The position numbers and the translations under genes were made by a program. Of a stretch of DNA of 16,119 nucleotides, positions 2,182 through 12,210 are shown piece by piece. How positions within the stretch are numbered: position 1 is the stretch's first letter; each line of letters begins with the position of its first letter. The notes under the pieces were generated by a model. It was not told the DNA's origin. It did no database searches and saw only the letters and a program-made list of their open reading frames with translations. The stretch lies in UHGV virus genome UHGV-1638998; one strand, given 5' to 3'. Origin of the DNA: a virus.

Positions 2182-2421
2182 ATGATTGGCAAAATTATCA
2201 AATACATATCCCTCTCTTTTGCAATAGCGCTGTTTGCAGTTCTTGCTCTTTCCGCAATCGATAATCAAATGGAGCAAAAAGCGTGGAATAAATATAAAAA
2301 CGAACACGAATGTTTTATTTCAGACACTGAAAGATGTGATGATAATTATAACAACCAAAAAATTTGGCAACATACCATCCTGCTACAAAATGTAAATGTA
2401 ATAATAGTGAGGAATTTGTAA
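2182..2421 (+). CDS. Small secreted or membrane-anchored Cys-containing protein (79 aa), unknown function
   Basis: N-terminal hydrophobic signal-like segment IIKYISLSFAIALFAVLALSA; two Cys eight residues apart; AT-rich like the downstream gene; stop 1 nt before the next start; weak RBS. Confidence 0.35.
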   Translation: MIGKIIKYISLSFAIALFAVLALSAIDNQMEQKAWNKYKNEHECFISDTERCDDNYNNQKIWQHTILLQNVNVIIVRNL

Positions 2422-2422
2422 G

Positions 2423-3541
2423 ATGAAAGTTAATTCTTTTTTTGTTTTTGGATTAAGTTGCCTTTTTATATCAGGGCCGGGATATTCACAAGATGATAAT
2501 GGCAATGAAAAATTAAATGAGGTTACTGTAAGAGGTAATCACCCAAGAGCAAATGGCATTTGGACTCAATACGAAGGTCTTGATACAGCCCTGCGCGGTC
2601 ATGAAATTCTCACTGATGTCATTGAACCTAATTCACAGTTCTACAACTGGAAAGGTGAGCCAGTAAAAGCCCATGATTTAACAAATCAGAATGCCGATAA
2701 TTATGATAGCGTTCACAATCACTATCAAAACTTCCTGAGTGAAGTATGGAATTTTAAACCAAACACCAACGCTGTCTCCATCTGGGGTGATTCTGCTGCC
2801 ATTGCTAAAGACTCAAAGGCGTGGGGGGCATTCTTTAGCGCTCGTTCATATTTCAAGGCCTTTACAAAGGATGGGAAATATCATGATCTGGCACCGGCTG
2901 GTTCAGATTTCACATTCAATCCAGAAGACTATGATAACCAACTCGTAGGGGTTGAGATTGATGTCCTTAATGGCGGCAAGCCCGGAGTATTCCCCAATAA
3001 GTCCAAAGTGGGCTTACAGATAGTTGGCTTTGGAAATCCAAACTCCATGGCCGTAGAAGTGCGAAGCGAAGATACAGATAAAGATGTACCAGCAGAGAAG
3101 CGTCGCGGTGTCTGGGAAAGTGGGATTTACTTCAAGAATTCTATAGCTGATTATGGCAGGCTCATTGTTGCTGATTTTGATAAAGCCAAGATGGGTTTTG
3201 ACTTTAGGCGATCTCTATTCCGCGAAGGGATAATGCAGGCACGCACAGAAGGTGTTGGTACCGGTATTATCTTGAATGAAGGAAAGTCGGGAGAAATATA
3301 TGGAGGCACTCGCTGGAACGGTTCAGAAGATAAGCGCAACTGGATTTCAATAAGAAACGGCGAAGGTGGAACTCGTATAGTCTCAAATGATAATACTAAA
3401 GAAGTTCTTGCAGTCGACAACGATGGCGGCGTTTACATTAATGGGGATGTTTACATTAATGGCAAGAAATTAAATGACCTACTAAAACTTGATGAAAGAG
3501 TTTCAAAAATCGAAAAACAATTATCAGAATTAAAAAAATAA
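2423..3541 (+). CDS. Secreted protein of unknown function (AT-rich cargo gene)
   Basis: 372 aa; N-terminal Sec-type signal peptide MKVNSFFVFGLSCLFISGPGYSQ; RBS GAGGA; much lower GC than the flanking phage genes; C-terminal Gly/Asn-rich repeats ending in a short coiled coil. No family recognised. Confidence 0.7.
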   Translation: MKVNSFFVFGLSCLFISGPGYSQDDNGNEKLNEVTVRGNHPRANGIWTQYEGLDTALRGHEILTDVIEPNSQFYNWKGEPVKAHDLTNQNADNYDSVHNHYQNFLSEVWNFKPNTNAVSIWGDSAAIAKDSKAWGAFFSARSYFKAFTKDGKYHDLAPAGSDFTFNPEDYDNQLVGVEIDVLNGGKPGVFPNKSKVGLQIVGFGNPNSMAVEVRSEDTDKDVPAEKRRGVWESGIYFKNSIADYGRLIVADFDKAKMGFDFRRSLFREGIMQARTEGVGTGIILNEGKSGEIYGGTRWNGSEDKRNWISIRNGEGGTRIVSNDNTKEVLAVDNDGGVYINGDVYINGKKLNDLLKLDERVSKIEKQLSELKK

Positions 3542-3571: not shown

Positions 3572-6322
3572 TTAATTGCCTTCCAATTTTTCAATTCTTT
3601 TTATTACATCTTGCATCGCTGATACAATTGGTGCTATGAATTGTTCATAACGTAAACCAATCTCCCCATCTTCACCCTCTACATATCCACCAAAGTCGCC
3701 AGTGCCGAGTTGATCAAGTAGGGCTTTAACTTCCTGAGCGATAAAGCCGTAATGGGTACGCTTACCGGCAACCGAAGTGATAACCGTTTTTTTCTTTGGT
3801 ACCCTTACAGTTTCCATGCGAGGAATGCTGACCGTCTCAAGGAAACTACCGTTTTCGTCTTCAACGTTAACAGTATCAAATACCGGGTGCTCAACTTCTT
3901 TTGTAACATATTTTCTTACAAATTTGATTACACCATCAACATTAATTCGCTCGTTAATCTCTTCTGTACTATGGATAATCTCAGTGACCTGCCGTTCTAT
4001 ATATTCAAATCCGTCATCAATTTCTTCAACAACATTCCCCCCACTGATGAAACGATATGATACCGGATGCAGCCCTTTAATAAACTCTATCGATAAGTTG
4101 CTTTCAGCCACATCAGTTTTTAAAGTTCCATCAGATGTTTGAATTGTTCCATTTGCAGCCCAAATAGATGAAGGGCGATTTCCAGATTTACCAACGGTAA
4201 ACATATTATCTACATGCGGGTAAATAGCGGCATTAAAATGTAGTTCATTATTTATTTGAATAAACCCATTACCTTTCGCGGCCAGAATAGTATTTATATT
4301 CGCATCAGGGCCGACAGCGCTAAAAGCAGGTTGATCACCAGTAGTGGCACTATCAAAACGAAATCTATTCACGTCTCCAGAAGAGTATGTGCGATAACCG
4401 AACTCTGCACATGCTCGCCCGTATGCCCCCCCTATAGTGACTATGCCATTTACACCATCAACAGTGATCTGTCGTCGTGCATTGCCGTCCGGATCCCACC
4501 CACTACCAATAAATACTGGATACTGGTCACCGTTACCACCAGCTGCGTGTAGGTGATAAAATCCCCGAGCAGAAGCAATAAGAGAAATATTTTCTTCAAA
4601 TCCAGCTCCGGTAACACGATGCATACGCAATGCAGTAACTAAGTTATCTACACTACCCCACCAATAATAGTCGACATTATCAGCAATACCTACATCCGCG
4701 GTAAGTGTGGCTAACCAAGAATCAGAATATGATGCCTGTACAGTCGTAATGCCATTCACTACGAACGTAGTTTGTATATTGTTGAGCGGAATAAATGGGT
4801 CGCCAGATATACGAATAATTTTCTTCCCCGATACATTGCATTTACCCTGCCCCCAAATGTAACAGCATACATAGGTTGCAGATATTGATGACGGAAATGA
4901 CACCGCGCTGTTATCGATGTTTTTCACTGTAAATGATCCTGATGCCACTGATACCACCGTATACCCAGCATCCCTGATCCATATTGTTTTTCCAATTTCA
5001 TCAACCGTTAAGCCTGGTCCTGTATTTACATTTACGATATTAGTTCCGGCAACAGTTGTGCATTTACCCGCGCGAGAAGCTGGCTGGACTGCGATCTCTG
5101 TCGGGCTTGGGTATTTACTTGGTTGTACTGAAGTCCATGACGAATAGCCATCCGGAAAGAAAACATTACCATAAGTTCCATTAATTGGGTTTCCGCCACC
5201 AACCTGTAGACCGGATACATTGCCAGCATTGCTCCCAAACCTGAAGTTAACACCAAATTGCGGGTGCCCATCCGAACCGCGAACGCCTTCAGTTCCAATA
5301 CTTACAGCCCCGGAACCACCATCAATACGCTGAACAACAGCACGGCGAAGATATCCGGTTCCTGTTATCGTTACTGGCTCTTCAAAAATGAAGTGGCGGC
5401 CGTAGCAGTCCACTTCGGTATTGAGCATGTAGTTTCCAGCAGGAACGAGAATTTGCTTGCCCTTTGGCACTAGGGCGTTTGCGGTAGAGAATGCCGGTGA
5501 GGCGTCCGTTGCGCCGGAATATTCATCGCCTAAGAAGTCTTTAATACTGATAAACTGCGCGTTAAAATCATGCTGCGTACGCCCTACCGCTCCAGCATAA
5601 GGCTGTTTTACGCCAATTAAGGAATCCCCCTTCCCATCATCAGTGCTTGCTAATTCAATGAGGACATCCGCTGCGCTTCCGCTTTCCGGAAGAAGCATAA
5701 TCGGATTACCAGATGAATCCATACCAACAATTTTATTTTTTCGTAACTCAATAGATGGTAATTGTGGGATGCTTTCTTCCGTACGAAGCGTTCTGCTGAA
5801 TAACAAATCTGTATGTGAAGTATTTCCTTCGCTTAATGAATCAGCATAATTTTTAGTTGCTGCATCCTGTGGCCTTACCGGATCTCGCAGATTTCTAATA
5901 TAGTTACTCATGGCATCGTAATAATTTGCCACAAACGACGGTTTACGCAATGCCAGGCTGAACAAACTGCCCACCTGCTGAATCAGCATCGTCAGTTTAT
6001 CGAATGCATCTTCATGCACCTCAGCGAAAAACTTACCCTGATTGCGCAGGTCTGTTTCCTGCGTTGCCTCCAGCTCGCGGGCAATCGATATTTGCCAACC
6101 GTTCGCCAGCGGCGAGGTAAGAACAACACTTCCGCCGTTAAAGCCACCAGCGTTCGTCACGGTGTAGTCAGTATCCAGCACCAGTACCGTGATGTTTTCG
6201 CTCAGGTCAATCACTGAAACGGTAAGGTCTGCTTTCTTGAAAATTCGGAAGGTGTAAGGGAATGATGTCGTAACGCCGTTCCCGGTGTAATCGTTATGGT
6301 CAACTACGGTTGATACCGTCAT
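3572..6322 (-). CDS. Tail fiber / tailspike protein with T7-gp17-like N-terminal anchor and C-terminal intramolecular chaperone (peptidase S74-like) domain; candidate depolymerase
   Basis: 916 aa from ATG 6322 (RBS GGAGA; the listed ORF starts 14 codons upstream). N-terminus …GNGVTTSFPYTF…LDTDYTVT… follows the T7 gp17 pattern. C-terminus HYGFIAQEVKALL…LRYEQFIAPIVSAMQDVIKRIEKLE resembles the self-cleaving chaperone domain of endosialidases. The central region is lower in GC. Confidence 0.85.
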   Translation of the reverse strand: MTVSTVVDHNDYTGNGVTTSFPYTFRIFKKADLTVSVIDLSENITVLVLDTDYTVTNAGGFNGGSVVLTSPLANGWQISIARELEATQETDLRNQGKFFAEVHEDAFDKLTMLIQQVGSLFSLALRKPSFVANYYDAMSNYIRNLRDPVRPQDAATKNYADSLSEGNTSHTDLLFSRTLRTEESIPQLPSIELRKNKIVGMDSSGNPIMLLPESGSAADVLIELASTDDGKGDSLIGVKQPYAGAVGRTQHDFNAQFISIKDFLGDEYSGATDASPAFSTANALVPKGKQILVPAGNYMLNTEVDCYGRHFIFEEPVTITGTGYLRRAVVQRIDGGSGAVSIGTEGVRGSDGHPQFGVNFRFGSNAGNVSGLQVGGGNPINGTYGNVFFPDGYSSWTSVQPSKYPSPTEIAVQPASRAGKCTTVAGTNIVNVNTGPGLTVDEIGKTIWIRDAGYTVVSVASGSFTVKNIDNSAVSFPSSISATYVCCYIWGQGKCNVSGKKIIRISGDPFIPLNNIQTTFVVNGITTVQASYSDSWLATLTADVGIADNVDYYWWGSVDNLVTALRMHRVTGAGFEENISLIASARGFYHLHAAGGNGDQYPVFIGSGWDPDGNARRQITVDGVNGIVTIGGAYGRACAEFGYRTYSSGDVNRFRFDSATTGDQPAFSAVGPDANINTILAAKGNGFIQINNELHFNAAIYPHVDNMFTVGKSGNRPSSIWAANGTIQTSDGTLKTDVAESNLSIEFIKGLHPVSYRFISGGNVVEEIDDGFEYIERQVTEIIHSTEEINERINVDGVIKFVRKYVTKEVEHPVFDTVNVEDENGSFLETVSIPRMETVRVPKKKTVITSVAGKRTHYGFIAQEVKALLDQLGTGDFGGYVEGEDGEIGLRYEQFIAPIVSAMQDVIKRIEKLEGN

Positions 6323-6426
6323 GGCCTGTCTCCAATAAAGCAGCGCCCGGCGCGCATGCATCATCTGGACAGTTTATTACCTAGCAAACCTTATATGAAT
6401 TGAATGAATAACAATCATGAAAGTTA

Positions 6427-6441
6427 TTACCTTTCAGGTAA
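6427..6441. promoter_or_regulatory. Operator-like palindrome TTACCTTTCAGGTAA (perfect)
   Basis: In the divergent region between the tail fiber start (6322) and the LexA-box gene, 38 bp upstream of the LexA box. Confidence 0.6.
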
Positions 6442-6478
6442 AGCTCATATCGTGCTGGATAGTGTTTCAAAGTTTTGC

Positions 6479-6498
6479 TACTGTACATACATACAGTA
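6479..6498. promoter_or_regulatory. LexA (SOS) box TACTGTACATACATACAGTA
   Basis: Matches the enterobacterial LexA consensus TACTG(TA)5CAGTA at all CTGT/ACAG core positions; 20 bp upstream of the ATG at 6518. Confidence 0.75.
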
Positions 6499-6517
6499 AT
6501 TGCATGGAGAACATGAG

Positions 6518-6778
6518 ATGCAACGTCAGTATCATCACCCGCTGGAAAAAGGATTTGCCGAACGCATACACACGCCGGGAGGCGTCCGCTCCCTTGTAGA
6601 AGAATCACATCTGATGACGTTGCTGCGACAACTGAATGAGGACGGATTTAACGTTGATGGCCCGATGGCGGAACTAACTGCCTTGGTGAACTACGTCACC
6701 AGCTCGCAGATGTCCATGAAGGATCTGCAGATGCATCTCGATTACTGTGTGGAAAAACTGAAGCAGGAAACGACTTAA
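6518..6778 (+). CDS. Small SOS-regulated protein, putative antirepressor (86 aa)
   Basis: ATG at 6518 with RBS GGAGAA 7 nt upstream (the listed ORF starts at an upstream TTG); a near-consensus LexA box lies 20 bp upstream. The product is not recognised; antirepressor function is inferred from context. Confidence 0.55.
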   Translation: MQRQYHHPLEKGFAERIHTPGGVRSLVEESHLMTLLRQLNEDGFNVDGPMAELTALVNYVTSSQMSMKDLQMHLDYCVEKLKQETT

Positions 6779-6812
6779 AAAAAGGCCGCATAGCGGCCTT
6801 GTGACATGTCAC
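6777..6812. terminator. Bidirectional terminator region between convergent transcription units
   Basis: 8-bp stem AAGGCCGC/GCGGCCTT (6782..6789 and 6793..6800), A-run on one side so a T-run on the minus strand; followed by the perfect palindrome GTGACATGTCAC (6801..6812). Confidence 0.65.
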
Positions 6813-7000
6813 AGTAATGGTAGCTTAAACACTATAGCCGCGAGAATGACGAAGGTCGCGAAGTAAACGACCTTCGCAGAGGTCTCGCCAAGCCAACCTT
6901 TTCTGATAGCGAATATTACCGCCCAAACATACGCCGTGCCGCATACCACGAAGAACGCAAACCAGAACAGAATCATGCCTATCTTGATCAATATATCCAT
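6809..7000 (-). CDS. Small membrane protein (63 aa, two predicted transmembrane helices)
   Basis: ATG shares a base with the TAA of the RuvC-like gene (TAATG). Translation MDILIKIGMILFWFAFFVVCGTAYVWAVIFAIRKGW… is strongly hydrophobic. The listed 84-aa ORF probably starts at this internal ATG. Confidence 0.5.
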   Translation of the reverse strand: MDILIKIGMILFWFAFFVVCGTAYVWAVIFAIRKGWLGETSAKVVYFATFVILAAIVFKLPLL

Positions 7001-7791
7001 TATTGCCCCACTGCCTTCCCGAGGTCTGGTGCGCGGCGAGGCGTTGTCTCGCCAGGCTCCCACCAGCTCGTCGTGTTGAATTCACGCTGCGCTCTGTCAC
7101 GCACCCTGTCGTTATACCCTGGGTTAGCCATCTCCTGAAGTTGCTGGAGTATCAGGTGGTTGGTAATGGCTTTCGCGTACCAGAGGTTGGCGAATGGGGT
7201 GATCATGCGCGCCGTCTTCAGCGCATCGGCACCGAAAGAAGTTTCTTCGCCCTGCAATGCCTTCTGCGGGTTCGTGATCAGAAGTTTGGTTAACTGCTCG
7301 GCGAAGCTCAGCACCGGCCCCCCGATGGTGGCCGCGATACTGGATCCATATTGCGTATGGTCCTGGAAAAGGAAATCGCCGTAGATACCGAATGAGCCGC
7401 CCTTCAGCAGAGCCTGCACCCATGTAGTTGGCTTTGTCATATCCAGTGGGTCATTGCCGGTCAATAGGCTGTTCATCTGGTTTGCAAACATCCCAGCCAA
7501 TGTCGTGCCTGCTATGTATGAAGCGAGGAATTTAAGCGCCGGTACGCCAGCTGCATGCCCGAACGTGAACATGCTTGCCGTTCCCTGTCCTGGCATGGCT
7601 CCGACCTGCTCTAGGTACGCATGAGTGATTCCGTACTGCCGAACCCATGCAGCTACCGCTGCGCCGTTCACCCTGGACTTTGTGCCGACCTTGATGGTTG
7701 GCATTGCCAGATGGTCGATGTATCCGCCCTGCTCAGTTACGAGAACCAGCGCCCCGCTGCATCCCGGGTCAATCCCTAATATTGCTGTCAT
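7000..7791 (-). CDS. RuvC-like (RNase H fold) nuclease with a C-terminal extension of about 100 aa
   Basis: 263 aa; N-terminus MTAILGIDPG and AYLEQV align with RuvC catalytic Asp7 and Glu66 (from memory); a later GDFLFQDH segment could supply the remaining acidic residues; the C-terminal 100 aa are unassigned. Confidence 0.65.
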   Translation of the reverse strand: MTAILGIDPGCSGALVLVTEQGGYIDHLAMPTIKVGTKSRVNGAAVAAWVRQYGITHAYLEQVGAMPGQGTASMFTFGHAAGVPALKFLASYIAGTTLAGMFANQMNSLLTGNDPLDMTKPTTWVQALLKGGSFGIYGDFLFQDHTQYGSSIAATIGGPVLSFAEQLTKLLITNPQKALQGEETSFGADALKTARMITPFANLWYAKAITNHLILQQLQEMANPGYNDRVRDRAQREFNTTSWWEPGETTPRRAPDLGKAVGQ

Positions 7792-7794
7792 GGC

Positions 7795-7871
7795 TTACCT
7801 CTCAGGTAATTTAAATCCACATTAGAGTTAAAATAAATAGCTATGCGCATATTTTGTTACCAGCAAGGTAA
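7795..7871. promoter_or_regulatory. Internal operator pair flanking an AT-rich promoter-like region: two perfect TTACC-N5-GGTAA sites
   Basis: TTACCTCTCAGGTAA at 7795..7809, 4 bp upstream of the RuvC-like ATG and overlapping its RBS; TTACCAGCAAGGTAA at 7857..7871. Both lie in the 117-bp gap between the P-like gene and the RuvC-like gene. Confidence 0.6.
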
Positions 7872-9461: not shown

Positions 9462-9670
9462 CAGATCACCTCCGGCACGTTGCCTTTCGCAGCTTCATCC
9501 ATAATCCGTTTAATCTCCGCCTGGCGGCGCAGACTTGAGTTGATGGCGCACTCAACGCAATGGCCGTTATAGACGTAACGCTCACTGTCATGACCGTGTT
9601 TGCACTTTTTACCGGTGTAATAACGCTTAAGACCTGCCTTTGCAGCGTCCAGACGAGTGATAATCTCCAT
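9461..9670 (-). CDS. Small zinc-ribbon protein (CxxxH…CxxC), function unknown
   Basis: 69 aa; RBS GAGG 7 nt upstream; stop overlaps the start of the next gene (TGATG), whose start is preceded by GGAGGTGA. Confidence 0.5.
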   Translation of the reverse strand: MEIITRLDAAKAGLKRYYTGKKCKHGHDSERYVYNGHCVECAINSSLRRQAEIKRIMDEAAKGNVPEVI

Positions 9671-9689
9671 TACGCAACCTCATTGACGT

Positions 9690-9704
9690 TTACTATTACG
9701 GTAA
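9690..9704. promoter_or_regulatory. Operator-like site TTACTATTACGGTAA (9/10) upstream of the replication genes
   Basis: Located between the terminator and the RBS (GAGG) of the 9461..9670 gene. Confidence 0.4.
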
Positions 9705-9763
9705 TTTTGTGCGATGGCCGAAAAAAGATCAACCATATTCGGATCATTATTACCTGAGAGAAC

Positions 9764-9776
9764 TGAATAGATATGA
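9764..9776. repeat. 13-mer TGAATAGATATGA, copy 1 of 3
   Basis: Exact 13-bp match to 15968..15980 and 16031..16043; lies immediately beside the terminator after the Cro-like gene. Confidence 0.5.
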
Positions 9777-9779
9777 AAA

Positions 9780-9797
9780 GACCGCCAGAAGGCGGCC
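9780..9797 (-). terminator. Putative intrinsic terminator just downstream of the Cro-like gene (tR1-like position)
   Basis: Minus-strand hairpin GCCGCC-UUCU-GGCGGU followed by CUUUUCAU, within 40 nt of the stop at 9820. Confidence 0.45.
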
Positions 9798-9819
9798 TGA
9801 TGGGGTTTAGAGGGAGGTT

Positions 9820-10050
9820 TTATTCGTAGAAGAAGATGGCCAGTTCCGGCTTTGTTCTGACCCATCCGCGCTGTTTGCATGCCTTAAACAGCCCATTCAT
9901 CAATGTCTTACCTGGCATTTTCCGGCGACCTGTCAGATGCGTCTGGATGTAATGGCTGGTAGTTCCTGCCTCGTCAGCAAAGGCATTTCGCTCATCAGGA
10001 GTGAGTTGCAACCAGTGTTTTTTGAAGTCGAATTTTTCGTTCTCGCTCAT
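9820..10050 (-). CDS. Cro-like small DNA-binding regulator (YdaS-like)
   Basis: 76 aa, divergently transcribed from the repressor gene; HTH-like segment AFADEAGTTSHYIQTHLTGRRK; position equivalent to lambda cro. Confidence 0.55.
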   Translation of the reverse strand: MSENEKFDFKKHWLQLTPDERNAFADEAGTTSHYIQTHLTGRRKMPGKTLMNGLFKACKQRGWVRTKPELAIFFYE

Positions 10051-10086
10051 AGCTATTGCCTGATATTAATTTCAGATAACAAATAT

Positions 10087-10149
10087 TCACCCAGAAGGTA
10101 ATAATAATCAAGGTTTGTTACCTGTCGGGTGCATTTACCTGTGAGGTAA
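10087..10149. promoter_or_regulatory. Right operator cluster in the divergent switch region: three TTACC-N5-GGTAA-type sites
   Basis: TCACCCAGAAGGTAA at 10087..10101 (9/10), TTACCTGTCGGGTGC at 10118..10132 (weak) and TTACCTGTGAGGTAA at 10135..10149 (perfect), between the Cro-like start (10050) and the repressor start (10205). Confidence 0.7.
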
Positions 10150-10204
10150 ATTCGCTTTTAATTGAACCACTAACTAATTCATATATGAGGCGAATCACCA
10201 GAGC

Positions 10205-10795
10205 ATGAAAAGTATTCAGGATATCCGCAGGCAGAATATTAACGATATCATCGACCGTGACTTTAACGGGGTGCAGACTCGTCTGGCGGAAAAACTGGGA
10301 ACTCAGGCCAACCTGGTGAACCGCTGGGCCCGCGGGCAGAAGGTTATCGGCGACACGGTGGCGCGCAAGATTGAGAAGGCGGCGAACAAGCCGTCGAACT
10401 GGCTGGACGTAGACCACTCATTATCTGCTGTTGCCATACCGCAGGAGGAGATCACCCCTTCCGATATCGGCCAGCTGGCGGCGCATAATCTCGAAGCGTG
10501 GATGCAGAATAACCGCGACCTGTCGTCTCAGGGAAAGGTGTCTAAAGCGTCCGGCGTTGCCCAGGCGACAATCCAGCGCATGCTGAACAATGAGGTTAGC
10601 GTTTCTATCTCCACCCTGGAGGCGATCGCTGGCGCGTTCGGGCGCCGCGGCTATGAGTTGCTCATCCATCCCCGCGACCCGGCGACCATCCATTACGACC
10701 GGGCCCGCTACGCATTGTTACCTGAGAGCGAGAAAAGCAAGATTGAGAGCTACGTCGATTTTGTGATTGTTCAGAACGGTAAAGCGCAAGATTAA
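10205..10795 (+). CDS. Prophage repressor, dual HTH, no recognisable LexA-like autocleavage domain
   Basis: 196 aa; two XRE-type HTH-like segments (LAEKLGTQANLVNRWARGQ and VSKASGVAQATIQRMLNNEV); no GxSM serine-peptidase motif; divergent from a Cro-like gene across an operator-rich intergenic region. Confidence 0.65.
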   Translation: MKSIQDIRRQNINDIIDRDFNGVQTRLAEKLGTQANLVNRWARGQKVIGDTVARKIEKAANKPSNWLDVDHSLSAVAIPQEEITPSDIGQLAAHNLEAWMQNNRDLSSQGKVSKASGVAQATIQRMLNNEVSVSISTLEAIAGAFGRRGYELLIHPRDPATIHYDRARYALLPESEKSKIESYVDFVIVQNGKAQD

Positions 10796-10815
10796 AACCA
10801 TATATTTCAGATACT

Positions 10816-10840
10816 AAGCCGCCATTGAGCGGCTTTTTTA
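10816..10840 (+). terminator. Rho-independent terminator after the repressor gene
   Basis: Stem AAGCCGC/GCGGCTT with loop CATTGA followed by TTTTTTA, 20 nt after the stop at 10795. Confidence 0.7.
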
Positions 10841-10852
10841 TTGCCAGAAGCG

Positions 10853-10929
10853 TTACCTTACAGGTAATTTTTTATAATCATACCTATTGACTTCAAACCA
10901 CATAAGGATAATTATTACCTCAACGGTAA
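10853..10929. promoter_or_regulatory. Left operator cluster: two perfect TTACC-N5-GGTAA palindromes
   Basis: TTACCTTACAGGTAA at 10853..10867 and TTACCTCAACGGTAA at 10915..10929, between the repressor-gene terminator and the first gene of the rightward early operon. Confidence 0.7.
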
Positions 10930-10946
10930 CACTGAGGTAACGAATT

Positions 10947-11096
10947 ATGCAGTGGAAAATCATCAACGGTTGGTACTGCGTTACGGCGTGCGGGCTGATG
11001 AGCACTAAGTGCCGCACTCTGCATGAGGCCATCAACTGGGCGTTTGTCACCAAGATGGCAGTCAAAACTGAAATGGATATGGGGGTGAGCAAGTGA
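10947..11096 (+). CDS. Small hypothetical protein (49 aa, Cys-rich)
   Basis: ATG at 10947 after GAGG, immediately downstream of the left operator cluster; stop overlaps the next start (GTGA). Below the ORF-track cutoff. Confidence 0.3.
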   Translation: MQWKIINGWYCVTACGLMSTKCRTLHEAINWAFVTKMAVKTEMDMGVSK

Positions 11097-11392
11097 ACAT
11101 CCAGCAGATCAATAACCTAAAAAGCATCATGACCAGCATCGACAGCGACTACCAGCTGAGCCAGTTGCACTACGAGCGCCAGGTAGAGCTGATCGACGCC
11201 ATTAAGCATCACCAGCTGCAGGAACCTTTCTATGCGCTGGAGCGCAAAGGCGTGCGCAAGGAGATTCTGGAAGAGCTAATGATGAATCCGGAATTTGAAG
11301 AAACTCTCGCTGCATTCCAGAGCGCGCTGACCAGCATCATCGCGAAGTGGGATCTGGCTGACCAGTTGGACACGGCGAGGAACGCGGCATGA
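11093..11392 (+). CDS. Hypothetical acidic protein (99 aa), first conserved-size gene of the recombination operon
   Basis: GTG start preceded by GGGGGTGAG; overlaps the upstream small ORF stop and the downstream exonuclease start. Confidence 0.5.
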   Translation: MNIQQINNLKSIMTSIDSDYQLSQLHYERQVELIDAIKHHQLQEPFYALERKGVRKEILEELMMNPEFEETLAAFQSALTSIIAKWDLADQLDTARNAA

Positions 11393-12210
11393 AGCCAGGA
11401 ATTTACTTCGACATCAGCAACGAGGATTACCACTCCGGAGACGGCGTGAGTAAGTCGCAGCTGGATATGGTTGCGTTGAGCCCGGCCCTGCTGCAATGGC
11501 AGAAATCAGCGCCGGTCGACACCGAAAAGCTGAAAGCGCTGGATATGGGCACCGCCCTGCACTGCCTGCTGCTGGAGCCGGAAGAGTTCGATAAGCGTTT
11601 CATCGTGGCGCCGCAGTTCAACCGCCGCACAGCAGCCGGAAAAGAGGATGAAGCAGCGTTCCTGAAAGATGTCGAGAACATGGGCATGACGGTTATGGAT
11701 GCCGAACAGGGCCGCAAGCTGAATCTTATGCGTGACAGCGCGATGGCCCATCCGGCGGCGCGCTGGCTTCTTGAGGCGGAAGGTTTCTGCGAAGCGTCGC
11801 ACTACTGGACGGATTCGGAAACCGGAGAGCTGTGCCGCATTCGCCCGGATAAGCGCCTGAAGAATCATCCGGTTCTGCTGGACGTAAAGAAGGTTGCGGA
11901 CATGGAGCGGTTCTCCCGCCACATCGAGGAATTCCGGTACCACGTTCAGGACGCCATGTACCGCGAAGGCGCGCAGCAGACCACCGGTGAGCCGCACGGA
12001 TTCTTTTTCCTGGCAGTGAGCGAAACCATCGACTGCGGCCGCTACCCGGTGCGCGTTTTCGAACTGGATGCACAGGACGTTGACGCCGGGCATGCACTGT
12101 TCCGCCGGGATCTGAATACCTACCACCAGTGCCGTGAGTCTGGCGAATGGGGTGGATTTGAAATTATCAAACGCCCCGAGTGGGCACGCAAACAGGATAA
12201 GTACGTATGA
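11389..12210 (+). CDS. PD-(D/E)XK family exonuclease (recombination partner of the annealing protein)
   Basis: 273 aa; RPD…LLDVKK resembles a PD-(D/E)XK nuclease motif; RBS GAGG 8 nt upstream; paired with the Bet-like gene. Confidence 0.65.
   Translation: MKPGIYFDISNEDYHSGDGVSKSQLDMVALSPALLQWQKSAPVDTEKLKALDMGTALHCLLLEPEEFDKRFIVAPQFNRRTAAGKEDEAAFLKDVENMGMTVMDAEQGRKLNLMRDSAMAHPAARWLLEAEGFCEASHYWTDSETGELCRIRPDKRLKNHPVLLDVKKVADMERFSRHIEEFRYHVQDAMYREGAQQTTGEPHGFFFLAVSETIDCGRYPVRVFELDAQDVDAGHALFRRDLNTYHQCRESGEWGGFEIIKRPEWARKQDKYV

What the first reader, a model, noticed from the sequence alone, without database searches (positions are those of the whole stretch)
6427..6778. Probable SOS induction by antirepression: LexA-box-controlled small gene paired with a repressor that lacks a cleavage domain
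A near-consensus LexA box (TACTGTACATACATACAGTA, 6479..6498) sits 20 bp upstream of an 86-aa ORF (6518..6778) that has a good RBS and a terminator. The element's repressor (10205..10795) has two HTH-like segments and no recognisable RecA-dependent autocleavage module (no GxSM serine motif, and the C-terminal part is too short). Together this suggests induction through a LexA-regulated antirepressor, as described for Gifsy-type prophages and coliphage 186 Tum, rather than through repressor self-cleavage. I do not recognise the small protein, so it may be a new antirepressor family.
Basis: partly seen in the sequence, partly recalled or inferred. Interest (0 to 1): 0.7.

Follow-up and report, generated by a model that had tools for sequence, protein, structure and literature searches.

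The report
Known SOS-controlled phage antirepressor switch

Summary
TACTGTACATACATACAGTA (6479-6498) is the only LexA-type box in the window (about 0.01 expected by chance). It differs by one spacer base from the E. coli K-12 sulA operator and lies 19 nt upstream of an 86-aa ORF (6518-6778) with a GGAG ribosome-binding site.

The protein is not unknown. It is 79% identical over its full length to Ant of Salmonella phage SPC32H (PDB 5D50 chain E, E=6e-44). The repressor (10205-10795) is a full-length homologue of SPC32H Rep (5D50 chain A, E=3e-48), with two HTH domains and no peptidase S24. This system was described by Kim & Ryu (2013) and solved by Kim et al. (2016): LexA represses ant, and Ant takes Rep off the DNA without cleaving it.

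The box is conserved in all relatives aligned except SPC32N, the published constitutive-Ant mutant. Ant and Rep co-occur in 35 of 35 phage records.

So the mechanism is supported by homology, and the "new antirepressor family" idea is refuted. No Pfam or NCBIfam model covers Ant, which explains why it was not recognised.

The window is a defective epsilon15-like prophage with a 22.7-kb deletion of the virion genes. The switch is intact but cannot yield phage. Interest is low.

The parts
6479..6498 (.). LexA operator (SOS box) TACTGTACATACATACAGTA
   Evidence: Unique in the window, 0.01 expected. One spacer base different from the K-12 sulA box. CTGT-N8-ACAG is invariant in 7 of 8 aligned relatives, the exception being the SPC32N mutant.
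6476..6484 (+). Inferred extended -10 of the ant promoter (TG-c-TACTGT), overlapping the left half of the LexA box
   Evidence: TG-n-TACTGT is invariant in all 8 relatives. The annotated p95 promoter of phage 186 has the same TGcTACTGT arrangement, with the -10 equal to the first 6 nt of its LexA box. This is an inference: the start site is not mapped and the consensus scan found no promoter.
6453..6462 (+). Invariant block TGCTGGATAG; candidate -35 (TGGATA, 6456-6461, 17-bp spacer)
   Evidence: Invariant columns in alignment A1. The function is inferred only.
6506..6509 (+). Ribosome-binding site GGAG, 8 nt before the ATG
   Evidence: Sequence. GCATGGAGA is invariant in relatives.
6518..6778 (+). 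ant: 86-aa antirepressor
   Evidence: 79% identity over 86/86 aa to SPC32H Ant. PDB 5D50_E 'Anti-repressor protein', E=5.8e-44. PHROG 450. 123 homologous clusters, all from Enterobacterales.
6782..6800 (.). GC-rich hairpin shared by the convergent ant and gp18-like genes; intrinsic terminator for the minus strand
   Evidence: The homologous hairpin is annotated as a rho-independent terminator in epsilon15.
6427..6441 (.). Putative Rep operator TTACCTTTCAGGTAA between ant and the tailspike gene
   Evidence: One of 6 exact TTACC-N5-GGTAA copies, 0.015 expected. Conserved in relatives. The equivalent site is annotated 'repressor; lysogeny' in epsilon15.
10205..10795 (+). rep: 196-aa two-HTH repressor without an autocleavage domain
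   Evidence: PDB 5D50_A 'Repressor', E=3e-48, full length. 47% identity to SPC32H Rep: N-terminal domain 59%, C-terminal domain 41%. HTH_3 twice and no S24 at E<=10.
10087..10149 (.). Operator cluster in the rep-cro intergenic region: 10087 (1 mismatch), 10118 (2 mismatches), 10135 (exact)
   Evidence: SPC32H has two exact copies at the equivalent place.
9820..10050 (-). cro-like gene divergent from rep
   Evidence: PHROG 35 transcriptional repressor, E=1.8e-9. Position is as in SPC32H and epsilon15.
10853..10929 (.). Two exact operators downstream of rep, ahead of the recE/recT operon
   Evidence: Three sites lie at the equivalent place in SPC32H and epsilon15.
7795..7871 (.). Two exact operators between the P replication gene and the ruvC-derived ORF
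   Evidence: Equivalent sites in SPC32H (35972, 36034) and epsilon15 (35906).

Best explanation
This is the Ant/Rep antirepression switch of epsilon15-like (Uetakevirus) temperate podophages, as worked out in Salmonella phage SPC32H.

In the lysogen, host LexA sits on the box at 6479-6498. The box overlaps the inferred -10 of the ant promoter and keeps ant silent. Rep (10205-10795) occupies TTACC-N5-GGTAA operators at the phage promoters. Rep is a two-HTH protein that binds DNA as a tetramer and has no RecA-dependent cleavage module.

DNA damage leads to LexA self-cleavage and ant is transcribed. The 86-aa Ant, a tetramer, binds two Rep dimers, breaks up the Rep tetramer and releases it from the DNA. 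No proteolysis of Rep is involved.

Shown here: the box, the ORF, full-length homology of both proteins to the two chains of the solved complex, conservation of the box, and co-occurrence of the two genes.

Inferred: LexA binding, the promoter position, the physical Ant-Rep interaction for this particular pair, and the identity of the operators.

In this window the switch sits in a deletion derivative of the prophage without virion genes. Its firing could at most derepress the early genes, replication, recombination and possibly the tailspike and lysis genes. It cannot give phage particles.
For: - Ant homology: 79% identical and 93% similar to SPC32H Ant with no gaps. It hits only PDB 5D50 chain E 'Anti-repressor protein', E=5.8e-44.
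- Rep homology: residues 1-192 align with 5D50 chain A 'Repressor' (E=3e-48) and the C-terminal domain aligns with 5D4Z.
- No S24 domain in Rep.
- GenBank annotates 'ant' and 'rep' in SPC32H and SPC32N at syntenic positions, with ant divergent from the tailspike gene.
- The LexA box is unique in the window and one base away from the sulA box.
- The box is conserved in E. coli PM4, BUCT554, SPC32H, epsilon15, TL-2011b and Tyrion. A near-consensus version is present in Klebsiella phage BUCT711.
- SPC32H and SPC32N differ at only 2 nucleotides genome-wide, and one of them destroys the CAG of the right half-site.
- All 35 phage records with Ant also carry a full-length Rep homologue, and 35 of the 36 records with such a Rep carry Ant.
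- Literature: LexA-controlled Ant inhibits the repressor through protein-protein contact (review PMC7380047 citing Kim & Ryu 2013). Rep binds DNA as a tetramer, and tetrameric Ant binds two Rep dimers and breaks the tetramer (PMC9638917 citing Kim et al. 2016).
- The operator motif is strongly enriched and placed as in SPC32H and epsilon15.
Against: - Nothing was measured on this element.
- Rep is only 46-47% identical to the characterised Rep, and the C-terminal domain is 41% identical. From my recollection of the 2016 paper, that domain carries the main Ant contacts. Binding of this Ant to this Rep is therefore inferred from homology and co-occurrence.
- No consensus sigma-70 promoter was found by the scan. 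The proposed -35 is weak.
- The hairpin after ant lacks a U-tract on the ant strand.
- The two primary papers could not be read here. Details of their experiments rest on citing papers and on my memory of the abstracts.
- The prophage is defective, so the biological outcome of the switch here is unknown.
Confidence: 0.9

Rival explanations
1. The 86-aa protein founds a new antirepressor family.
For: No Pfam or NCBIfam model matches it. PHROG 450 is labelled 'unknown function'. RefSeq and most other sources call it 'hypothetical protein'.
Against: It is 79% identical over its full length to SPC32H Ant, a protein with a published function and a crystal structure in complex with Rep. Several GenBank records already name it antirepressor.
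Confidence: 0.01
2. The repressor is inactivated by RecA-stimulated self-cleavage, like lambda cI, and the small LexA-controlled gene is an unrelated SOS moron.
For: None found. The only general point is that most lambdoid repressors work this way.
Against: No Peptidase_S24 match even at E<=10. The C-terminal half is a second HTH-type domain homologous to the solved Rep(92-198) tetramerisation domain, 5D4Z. Citing literature states that the repressor is inhibited by protein-protein interaction rather than cleavage.
Confidence: 0.02
3. The LexA box mainly controls the divergent tailspike/late promoter rather than ant.
For: The box lies in a 153-bp divergent intergenic region (6365-6517) shared with the tailspike gene.
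Against: The box ends 19 nt from the ant ATG but starts 115 nt from the tailspike ATG. The invariant TG-n-TACTGT reads as an extended -10 in the ant direction, just as in the 186 p95 promoter. A separate conserved Rep-operator-like site lies on the tailspike side. From memory of Kim & Ryu 2013, the SPC32N box mutation gives constitutive Ant.
Confidence: 0.04
4. The switch is intact in sequence but has changed role in this defective remnant. It may act in trans on Rep proteins of co-resident epsilon15-like prophages, or drive SOS-dependent expression of the retained recombination, tailspike or lysis genes, rather than inducing its own element.
For: The 22.7-kb deletion removes all packaging and most virion genes, while ant, rep, cro, O, P, recET, int, the tailspike gene and the lysis cassette stay intact and about 99.8% identical to the intact PM4 prophage. 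Ant is consistently more conserved than Rep across the family, which would allow cross-reactivity. Trans-acting antirepressors are documented for Gifsy prophages.
Against: The near-identity to an intact prophage suggests a very recent deletion, so there has been no time for selection. Sister remnants have lost ant or cut it off from its promoter, which looks like plain decay. The source genome of the window is unknown, so co-resident prophages cannot be checked.
Confidence: 0.1

Closest known systems
Ant/Rep antirepression system of Salmonella phage SPC32H (Kim & Ryu, J Virol 2013; Kim et al., PNAS 2016; PDB 5D50 and 5D4Z)
   Same: Both proteins are full-length homologues: Ant 79% identical, Rep 47%. 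The gene lengths match (86 aa; 196 versus 198 aa). ant is divergent from the tailspike gene, with a LexA box just upstream. The same TTACC-N5-GGTAA sites lie at rep-cro, downstream of rep, after the replication gene and between ant and the tailspike gene.
   Different: The host is E. coli rather than Salmonella. The Rep C-terminal domain is only 41% identical. The spacer of the LexA box differs (ACATACAT versus ATGTTTAT). The element has lost the virion module that normally follows ant.
Tum/CI of coliphage 186
   Same: The logic is the same: a LexA-repressed promoter (p95) drives a small antirepressor that blocks DNA binding by an uncleavable repressor. The promoter geometry matches too, with TGcTACTGT serving as -10 plus the left half of the box.
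   Different: No sequence similarity between Ant and Tum. Tum carries a DinI-like part. 186 is a P2-like myophage with a different repressor.
Gifsy-1/-3 and Fels-type LexA-controlled antirepressors of Salmonella (Lemire et al. 2011)
   Same: SOS induction through LexA-regulated antirepressors acting on non-cleavable repressors. Trans-acting crosstalk is possible.
   Different: Lambdoid siphophages. From memory of the Kim & Ryu abstract, their antirepressors are structurally distinct from Ant. This was not tested here because I had no sequences in hand.
Lambda cI / LexA-type autocleaving repressors (Peptidase S24)
   Same: A divergent rep-cro arrangement with multiple operators, and SOS as the inducing signal.
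   Different: No S24 domain and no cleavage. The second domain is HTH-like and mediates oligomerisation.
P22 Ant (immI region)
   Same: Both are called antirepressor and inactivate the repressor by binding it.
   Different: P22 Ant is a much larger protein controlled by Mnt and Arc, not by LexA. No Pfam antirepressor domain is detected in this protein.

Membership tests
SPC32H-type Ant/Rep antirepression module (epsilon15-like phages) | Small (~86 aa) protein homologous over its full length to SPC32H Ant | tested here: met
   79% identity over 86/86 aa, E=2e-54 pairwise. PDB 5D50_E, E=5.8e-44.
SPC32H-type Ant/Rep antirepression module (epsilon15-like phages) | Repressor homologous to SPC32H Rep: N-terminal HTH DNA-binding domain plus C-terminal HTH-like oligomerisation domain | tested here: met
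   5D50_A E=3e-48 over residues 1-192, and 5D4Z over 91-192. 47% identity. Two HTH_3 stretches.
SPC32H-type Ant/Rep antirepression module (epsilon15-like phages) | LexA operator immediately upstream of ant | tested here: met
   The box at 6479-6498 is unique in the window, conserved in relatives and one base different from the sulA box.
SPC32H-type Ant/Rep antirepression module (epsilon15-like phages) | LexA operator overlaps the ant promoter | tested here: inconclusive
   The invariant TG-n-TACTGT fits an extended -10 and matches the 186 p95 annotation. The consensus scan finds no promoter and no start site is available.
SPC32H-type Ant/Rep antirepression module (epsilon15-like phages) | ant and rep occur together in the same genome | tested here: met
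   35 of 35 Ant-bearing phage records also carry Rep. Both are present in the window.
SPC32H-type Ant/Rep antirepression module (epsilon15-like phages) | Ant binds Rep and releases it from operator DNA, and Rep is not cleaved during the SOS response | not testable with these tools
   This needs pull-down or SEC, EMSA and a western blot after mitomycin C. It is known for SPC32H only, through citing papers.
LexA / lambda cI-type autocleaving repressors | Peptidase S24 domain with a Ser-Lys dyad | tested here: not met
   No S24 hit at E<=10. The C-terminal half matches the Rep(92-198) HTH-like domain.
Coliphage 186 Tum family | Sequence homology to Tum | tested here: not met
   BLASTP finds no alignment at E<=100.
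E. coli LexA regulon operator | 16-mer core CTGT-N8-ACAG with an AT-rich spacer, within the 20-mer TACTG(TA)5CAGTA | tested here: met
   18 of 20 positions match the consensus, with both mismatches in the spacer. LexA binding itself was not tested.

The most novel reading that the evidence does not exclude
The conserved Rep-operator-like palindrome at 6427-6441, about 37 bp upstream of the LexA box, might make ant (or the divergent tailspike promoter) answer to Rep as well as to LexA. Once Ant starts to strip Rep from DNA, ant expression would then reinforce itself, giving a commitment loop. In this virion-less remnant such a switch could persist as an SOS-triggered trans-acting inducer of related prophages, or as a lysis module. 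As far as I could check without access to the primary papers, neither idea has been described for the SPC32H system.
Probability: 0.12. Interest if true: 0.4.

Novelty: already known. Interest (0 to 1): 0.12.

Why it matters
It matters little for discovery. The LexA, Ant and Rep pathway was established genetically, biochemically and structurally for a close relative, and homologues in E. coli phages of this group were already noted.

There are two practical points.

1. Annotation. Ant has no Pfam or NCBIfam model, and its PHROG is labelled 'unknown function'. RefSeq therefore calls it 'hypothetical protein' in E. coli, and sequence-only readers will keep rediscovering it. A curated family model would fix that.
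2. Prophage decay. This locus and its sister remnants give a natural series of decay of an SOS switch: an intact prophage, a virion-gene deletion, an IS insertion splitting the LexA box, and an IS1 deletion of ant. This series could be used to ask whether such switches are kept or lost in defective prophages.

Tried and rejected
- Primary papers: I tried to read Kim & Ryu 2013 (PMC3807360), Kim et al. 2016 (PMC4983836) and the epsilon15 genome paper (PMC2698709). None is held. I used citing papers instead and tested the published statements directly on sequences.
- Promoter scan: the consensus sigma-70 scan of 6300-7000 found no promoter on either strand. The promoter proposal therefore rests on conservation and on the analogy with 186 p95.
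- Family searches: Pfam and NCBIfam searches of Ant gave nothing meaningful. DUF724 at E=0.007 and CCP_MauG at E=0.15 are far below their cut-offs and were rejected as noise. A weak PHROG 1760 'anti-repressor' match (E=8.5e-7, residues 28-76 against the C-terminal end of a 232-position profile) hints at a shared domain with larger antirepressors. I did not pursue it.
- Rep hits to YdaS_toxin, HigA and RstR are sub-threshold HTH cross-matches and were rejected.
- Ant versus Tum: no similarity.
- A second ant copy in the window: none.
- The 372-aa ORF compared with the epsilon15 O-antigen polymerase: no similarity.
- Structure prediction was not run. At 79% identity to a solved chain it would add nothing.

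Full report
**1. The observation**

The 20-mer TACTGTACATACATACAGTA is at 6479-6498. It matches the E. coli LexA consensus TACTG(TA)5CAGTA at 18 of 20 positions, and both mismatches fall in the spacer. It is the only match in the 16-kb window at up to 3 mismatches, against 0.01 expected from shuffles. It is also the only exact CTGT-N8-ACAG. It differs at a single spacer base from the operator of the K-12 sulA gene, which I located at the expected place upstream of sulA.

The ORF runs from ATG 6518 to TAA 6778 and encodes 86 aa. GGAG lies at 6506-6509. A strong hairpin at 6782-6800 (-17.5 kcal/mol, z=-3.8) follows the stop codon. Its T-run is on the minus strand only, so it is the terminator of the convergent operon, and on the ant strand it lacks a U-tract.

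The putative repressor (10205-10795, 196 aa) has two HTH_3 stretches and no Peptidase_S24 match, even at E<=10.

**2. What the proteins are**

The 86-aa protein hits one entry in the PDB: chain E of 5D50, 'Anti-repressor protein', E=5.8e-44, aligned end to end. The repressor hits chain A of the same entry ('Repressor', E=3e-48, residues 1-192). Its C-terminal half hits 5D4Z.

DNA searches place the region in epsilon15-like podophages (Uetakevirus): BUCT554, epsilon15, SPN1S, SPC32H/N, phiV10, TL-2011b and Tyrion. In the SPC32H and SPC32N GenBank records the syntenic genes are annotated 'ant: anti-repressor protein' and 'rep: repressor'.

Pairwise identity to SPC32H is 79% for Ant, with no gaps. 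It is 47% for Rep, made up of 59% in the N-terminal domain and 41% in the C-terminal domain.

**3. What is known about the system**

The primary papers (Kim & Ryu 2013, J Virol 87:11775; Kim et al. 2016, PNAS 113:E2480) are not in the held library. Citing papers give the essentials:
- Rep binds DNA as a tetramer. [quoted passage not shown]

From my memory of the 2013 abstract, SPC32H and SPC32N differ by two nucleotides, and one of them, in the LexA box, makes Ant constitutive. I checked the sequence part of this directly. The two genomes differ at exactly two positions, 19960 and 20147. Position 19960 changes the CAG of the right half-site to AAG.

**4. Comparative evidence on the control region**

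I aligned the tailspike-ant intergenic region of the window with E. coli PM4, BUCT554, SPC32H, SPC32N, epsilon15, TL-2011b and Tyrion. The invariant blocks are:
- TACTGTA and ATACAGT of the box, except in the SPC32N mutant
- a TG two bases before the box
- the block TGCTGGATAG at 6453-6462
- the RBS block GCATGGAGA
- the palindrome ATTACC-N5-GGTAA at 6427-6441

In the most distant relative examined, Klebsiella phage BUCT711 (Ant 59% identical), the same layout is present. Its left half-site has one core change (ATGT), and the palindrome is retained.

The annotated p95 promoter of coliphage 186 has TGcTACTGT, with the -10 equal to the first six bases of its LexA box. The window has the same nine bases at 6476-6484. 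I therefore propose that the left half of the box is the -10 of the ant promoter, with an extended-10 TG and a weak -35 (TGGATA, 6456-6461). This is an inference, because the consensus scan detects no promoter.

**5. Co-occurrence**

tblastn finds Ant in 35 phage records. Every one of these also carries a full-length Rep homologue. Of the 36 records with such a Rep, 35 carry Ant. Ant is always the more conserved partner. For example, identities are 97.7% versus 95.5% with BUCT554, 84% versus 66% with Tyrion, 79% versus 44% with SPC32H, and 59% versus 46% with the Klebsiella phages.

In the 5.8-billion-protein collection the family comprises 123 clusters, all from Enterobacterales. None has a Pfam domain, and nearly all are named 'hypothetical protein'; a few UniRef entries read 'Anti-repressor protein'. 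Pfam and NCBIfam have no model for it, and PHROG 450 is labelled 'unknown function'. That explains why a reader working from memory did not recognise it.

**6. Operators**

The palindrome TTACC-N5-GGTAA occurs exactly six times in the window, at 6427, 7795, 7857, 10135, 10853 and 10915. About 0.015 copies are expected by chance. Degenerate copies lie at 10087 and 10118 in the rep-cro intergenic region.

SPC32H has ten exact copies at the corresponding places: rep-cro, downstream of rep, after the replication gene, between ant and the tailspike gene, and ahead of the terminase and portal operons. The epsilon15 GenBank record annotates these positions as 'repressor; lysogeny' binding sites. They are therefore the likely Rep operators.

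The role of the copy next to ant is unresolved. It could control the tailspike promoter, or it could couple ant to Rep.

**7. Context: a defective prophage**

The window spans the whole element between yfgI and guaA. Compared with the intact, 99.8%-identical prophage of E. coli PM4, it follows that prophage up to 7545, which lies inside the C-terminal part of the gp17-like virion gene. It then jumps into ruvC, with a 7-bp overlap at 7539-7545.

The deletion is 22,677 bp. It removes the rest of the structural module, the terminase genes and the nin-type genes. It also creates an in-frame fusion ORF at 7000-7791, with a Holliday-junction-resolvase N-terminus and a virion-protein C-terminus.

The lysis cassette, the tailspike gene, ant, P, the DnaT-like O gene, cro, rep, recE/recT, the AlpA-type regulator and the integrase gene remain. 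'Induction' here cannot produce virions.

No complete E. coli genome in the collection has this exact junction, but sister remnants exist. In Z226-5 an ISEc53-like element carrying a ClbS gene is inserted inside the LexA-box spacer with an 8-bp duplication, and a different deletion runs into P. In 2017.15.02CC an IS1-associated deletion removed ant.

**8. Comparison with known systems, and verdict**

The element meets every testable defining feature of the SPC32H-type Ant/Rep module. Only the biochemical features cannot be tested here. It works like 186 Tum and the Gifsy antirepressors but is not homologous to Tum. It is not a cI/LexA-type autocleaving repressor system.

Novelty: already known. 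Interest is low. The residual value lies in the annotation gap, the unresolved operator next to ant, and the series of decaying remnants.

Noticed in passing
window 6809-7791 (junction 7539-7545): Relative to the intact prophage of E. coli PM4, the element carries a 22,677-bp deletion with 7-bp microhomology. It removes the virion, terminase and nin-type genes and creates an in-frame RuvC(N-terminus)-gp17(C-terminus) fusion ORF at 7000-7791. The window is a defective epsilon15-like prophage filling the whole yfgI-guaA interval.
   Followed up: yes
window 6427, 7795, 7857, 10135, 10853, 10915 (plus degenerate copies at 10087, 10118, 9690, 15916): There are six exact copies of TTACC-N5-GGTAA (0.015 expected), placed at operon starts just as in SPC32H (10 copies). 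The equivalent positions are annotated as repressor sites in epsilon15. The motif is shared by phages whose Reps are only 44-47% identical, so how immunity specificity is set is unclear.
   Followed up: partly
L003 (E. coli Z226-5) 9477-11395; equivalent to window 6485-6492: An ISEc53-like ISL3 element carrying a ClbS/DfsB-family gene (1,885 bp) is inserted inside the LexA-box spacer, with an 8-bp duplication ACATACAT. This separates ant from the left half-site and the inferred -10. The same remnant has a different deletion ending inside gene P.
   Followed up: partly
L010 (E. coli 2017.15.02CC): This is a third decay variant of the same prophage at the same locus. An IS1-associated deletion runs from the middle of the tailspike gene to the cII-like region and removes ant, while rep is kept.
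   Followed up: no
window 2182-2421 and 2423-3541 (+ strand): A 79-aa ORF with one hydrophobic segment is followed by a 372-aa ORF with a signal-peptide-like N-terminus and no transmembrane segments. The larger ORF has no Pfam or PHROG hit and no similarity to the epsilon15 O-antigen polymerase. Together they occupy the slot where relatives carry O-antigen-modifying genes (oac, gtrABC, the epsilon15 polymerase and its inhibitor), so they may be uncharacterised lysogenic-conversion cargo.
   Followed up: partly
window 6801-6812: The perfect palindrome GTGACATGTCAC lies directly after the shared terminator hairpin and overlaps the stop codon of the gp18-like gene. It is conserved in SPC32H (L001 6467-6478) but absent in the Klebsiella relative. 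Its function is unknown.
   Followed up: no
phage records phiV10, TL-2011b, HEMP4 and others: tblastn with Ant reports 2-3 separate places in several phage genomes, which suggests a second Ant-like ORF or domain in some relatives. The window has only one. A weak PHROG 1760 'anti-repressor' match to Ant residues 28-76 may be related.
   Followed up: no
window 3572-6364 (- strand): The 930-aa tailspike carries a C-terminal Peptidase_S74 intramolecular-chaperone motif. It differs from the tailspikes of relatives, which are annotated as polysaccharide lyase, sialidase or beta-helix types, so the receptor-binding module has been swapped while the adjacent ant region stays conserved.
   Followed up: no
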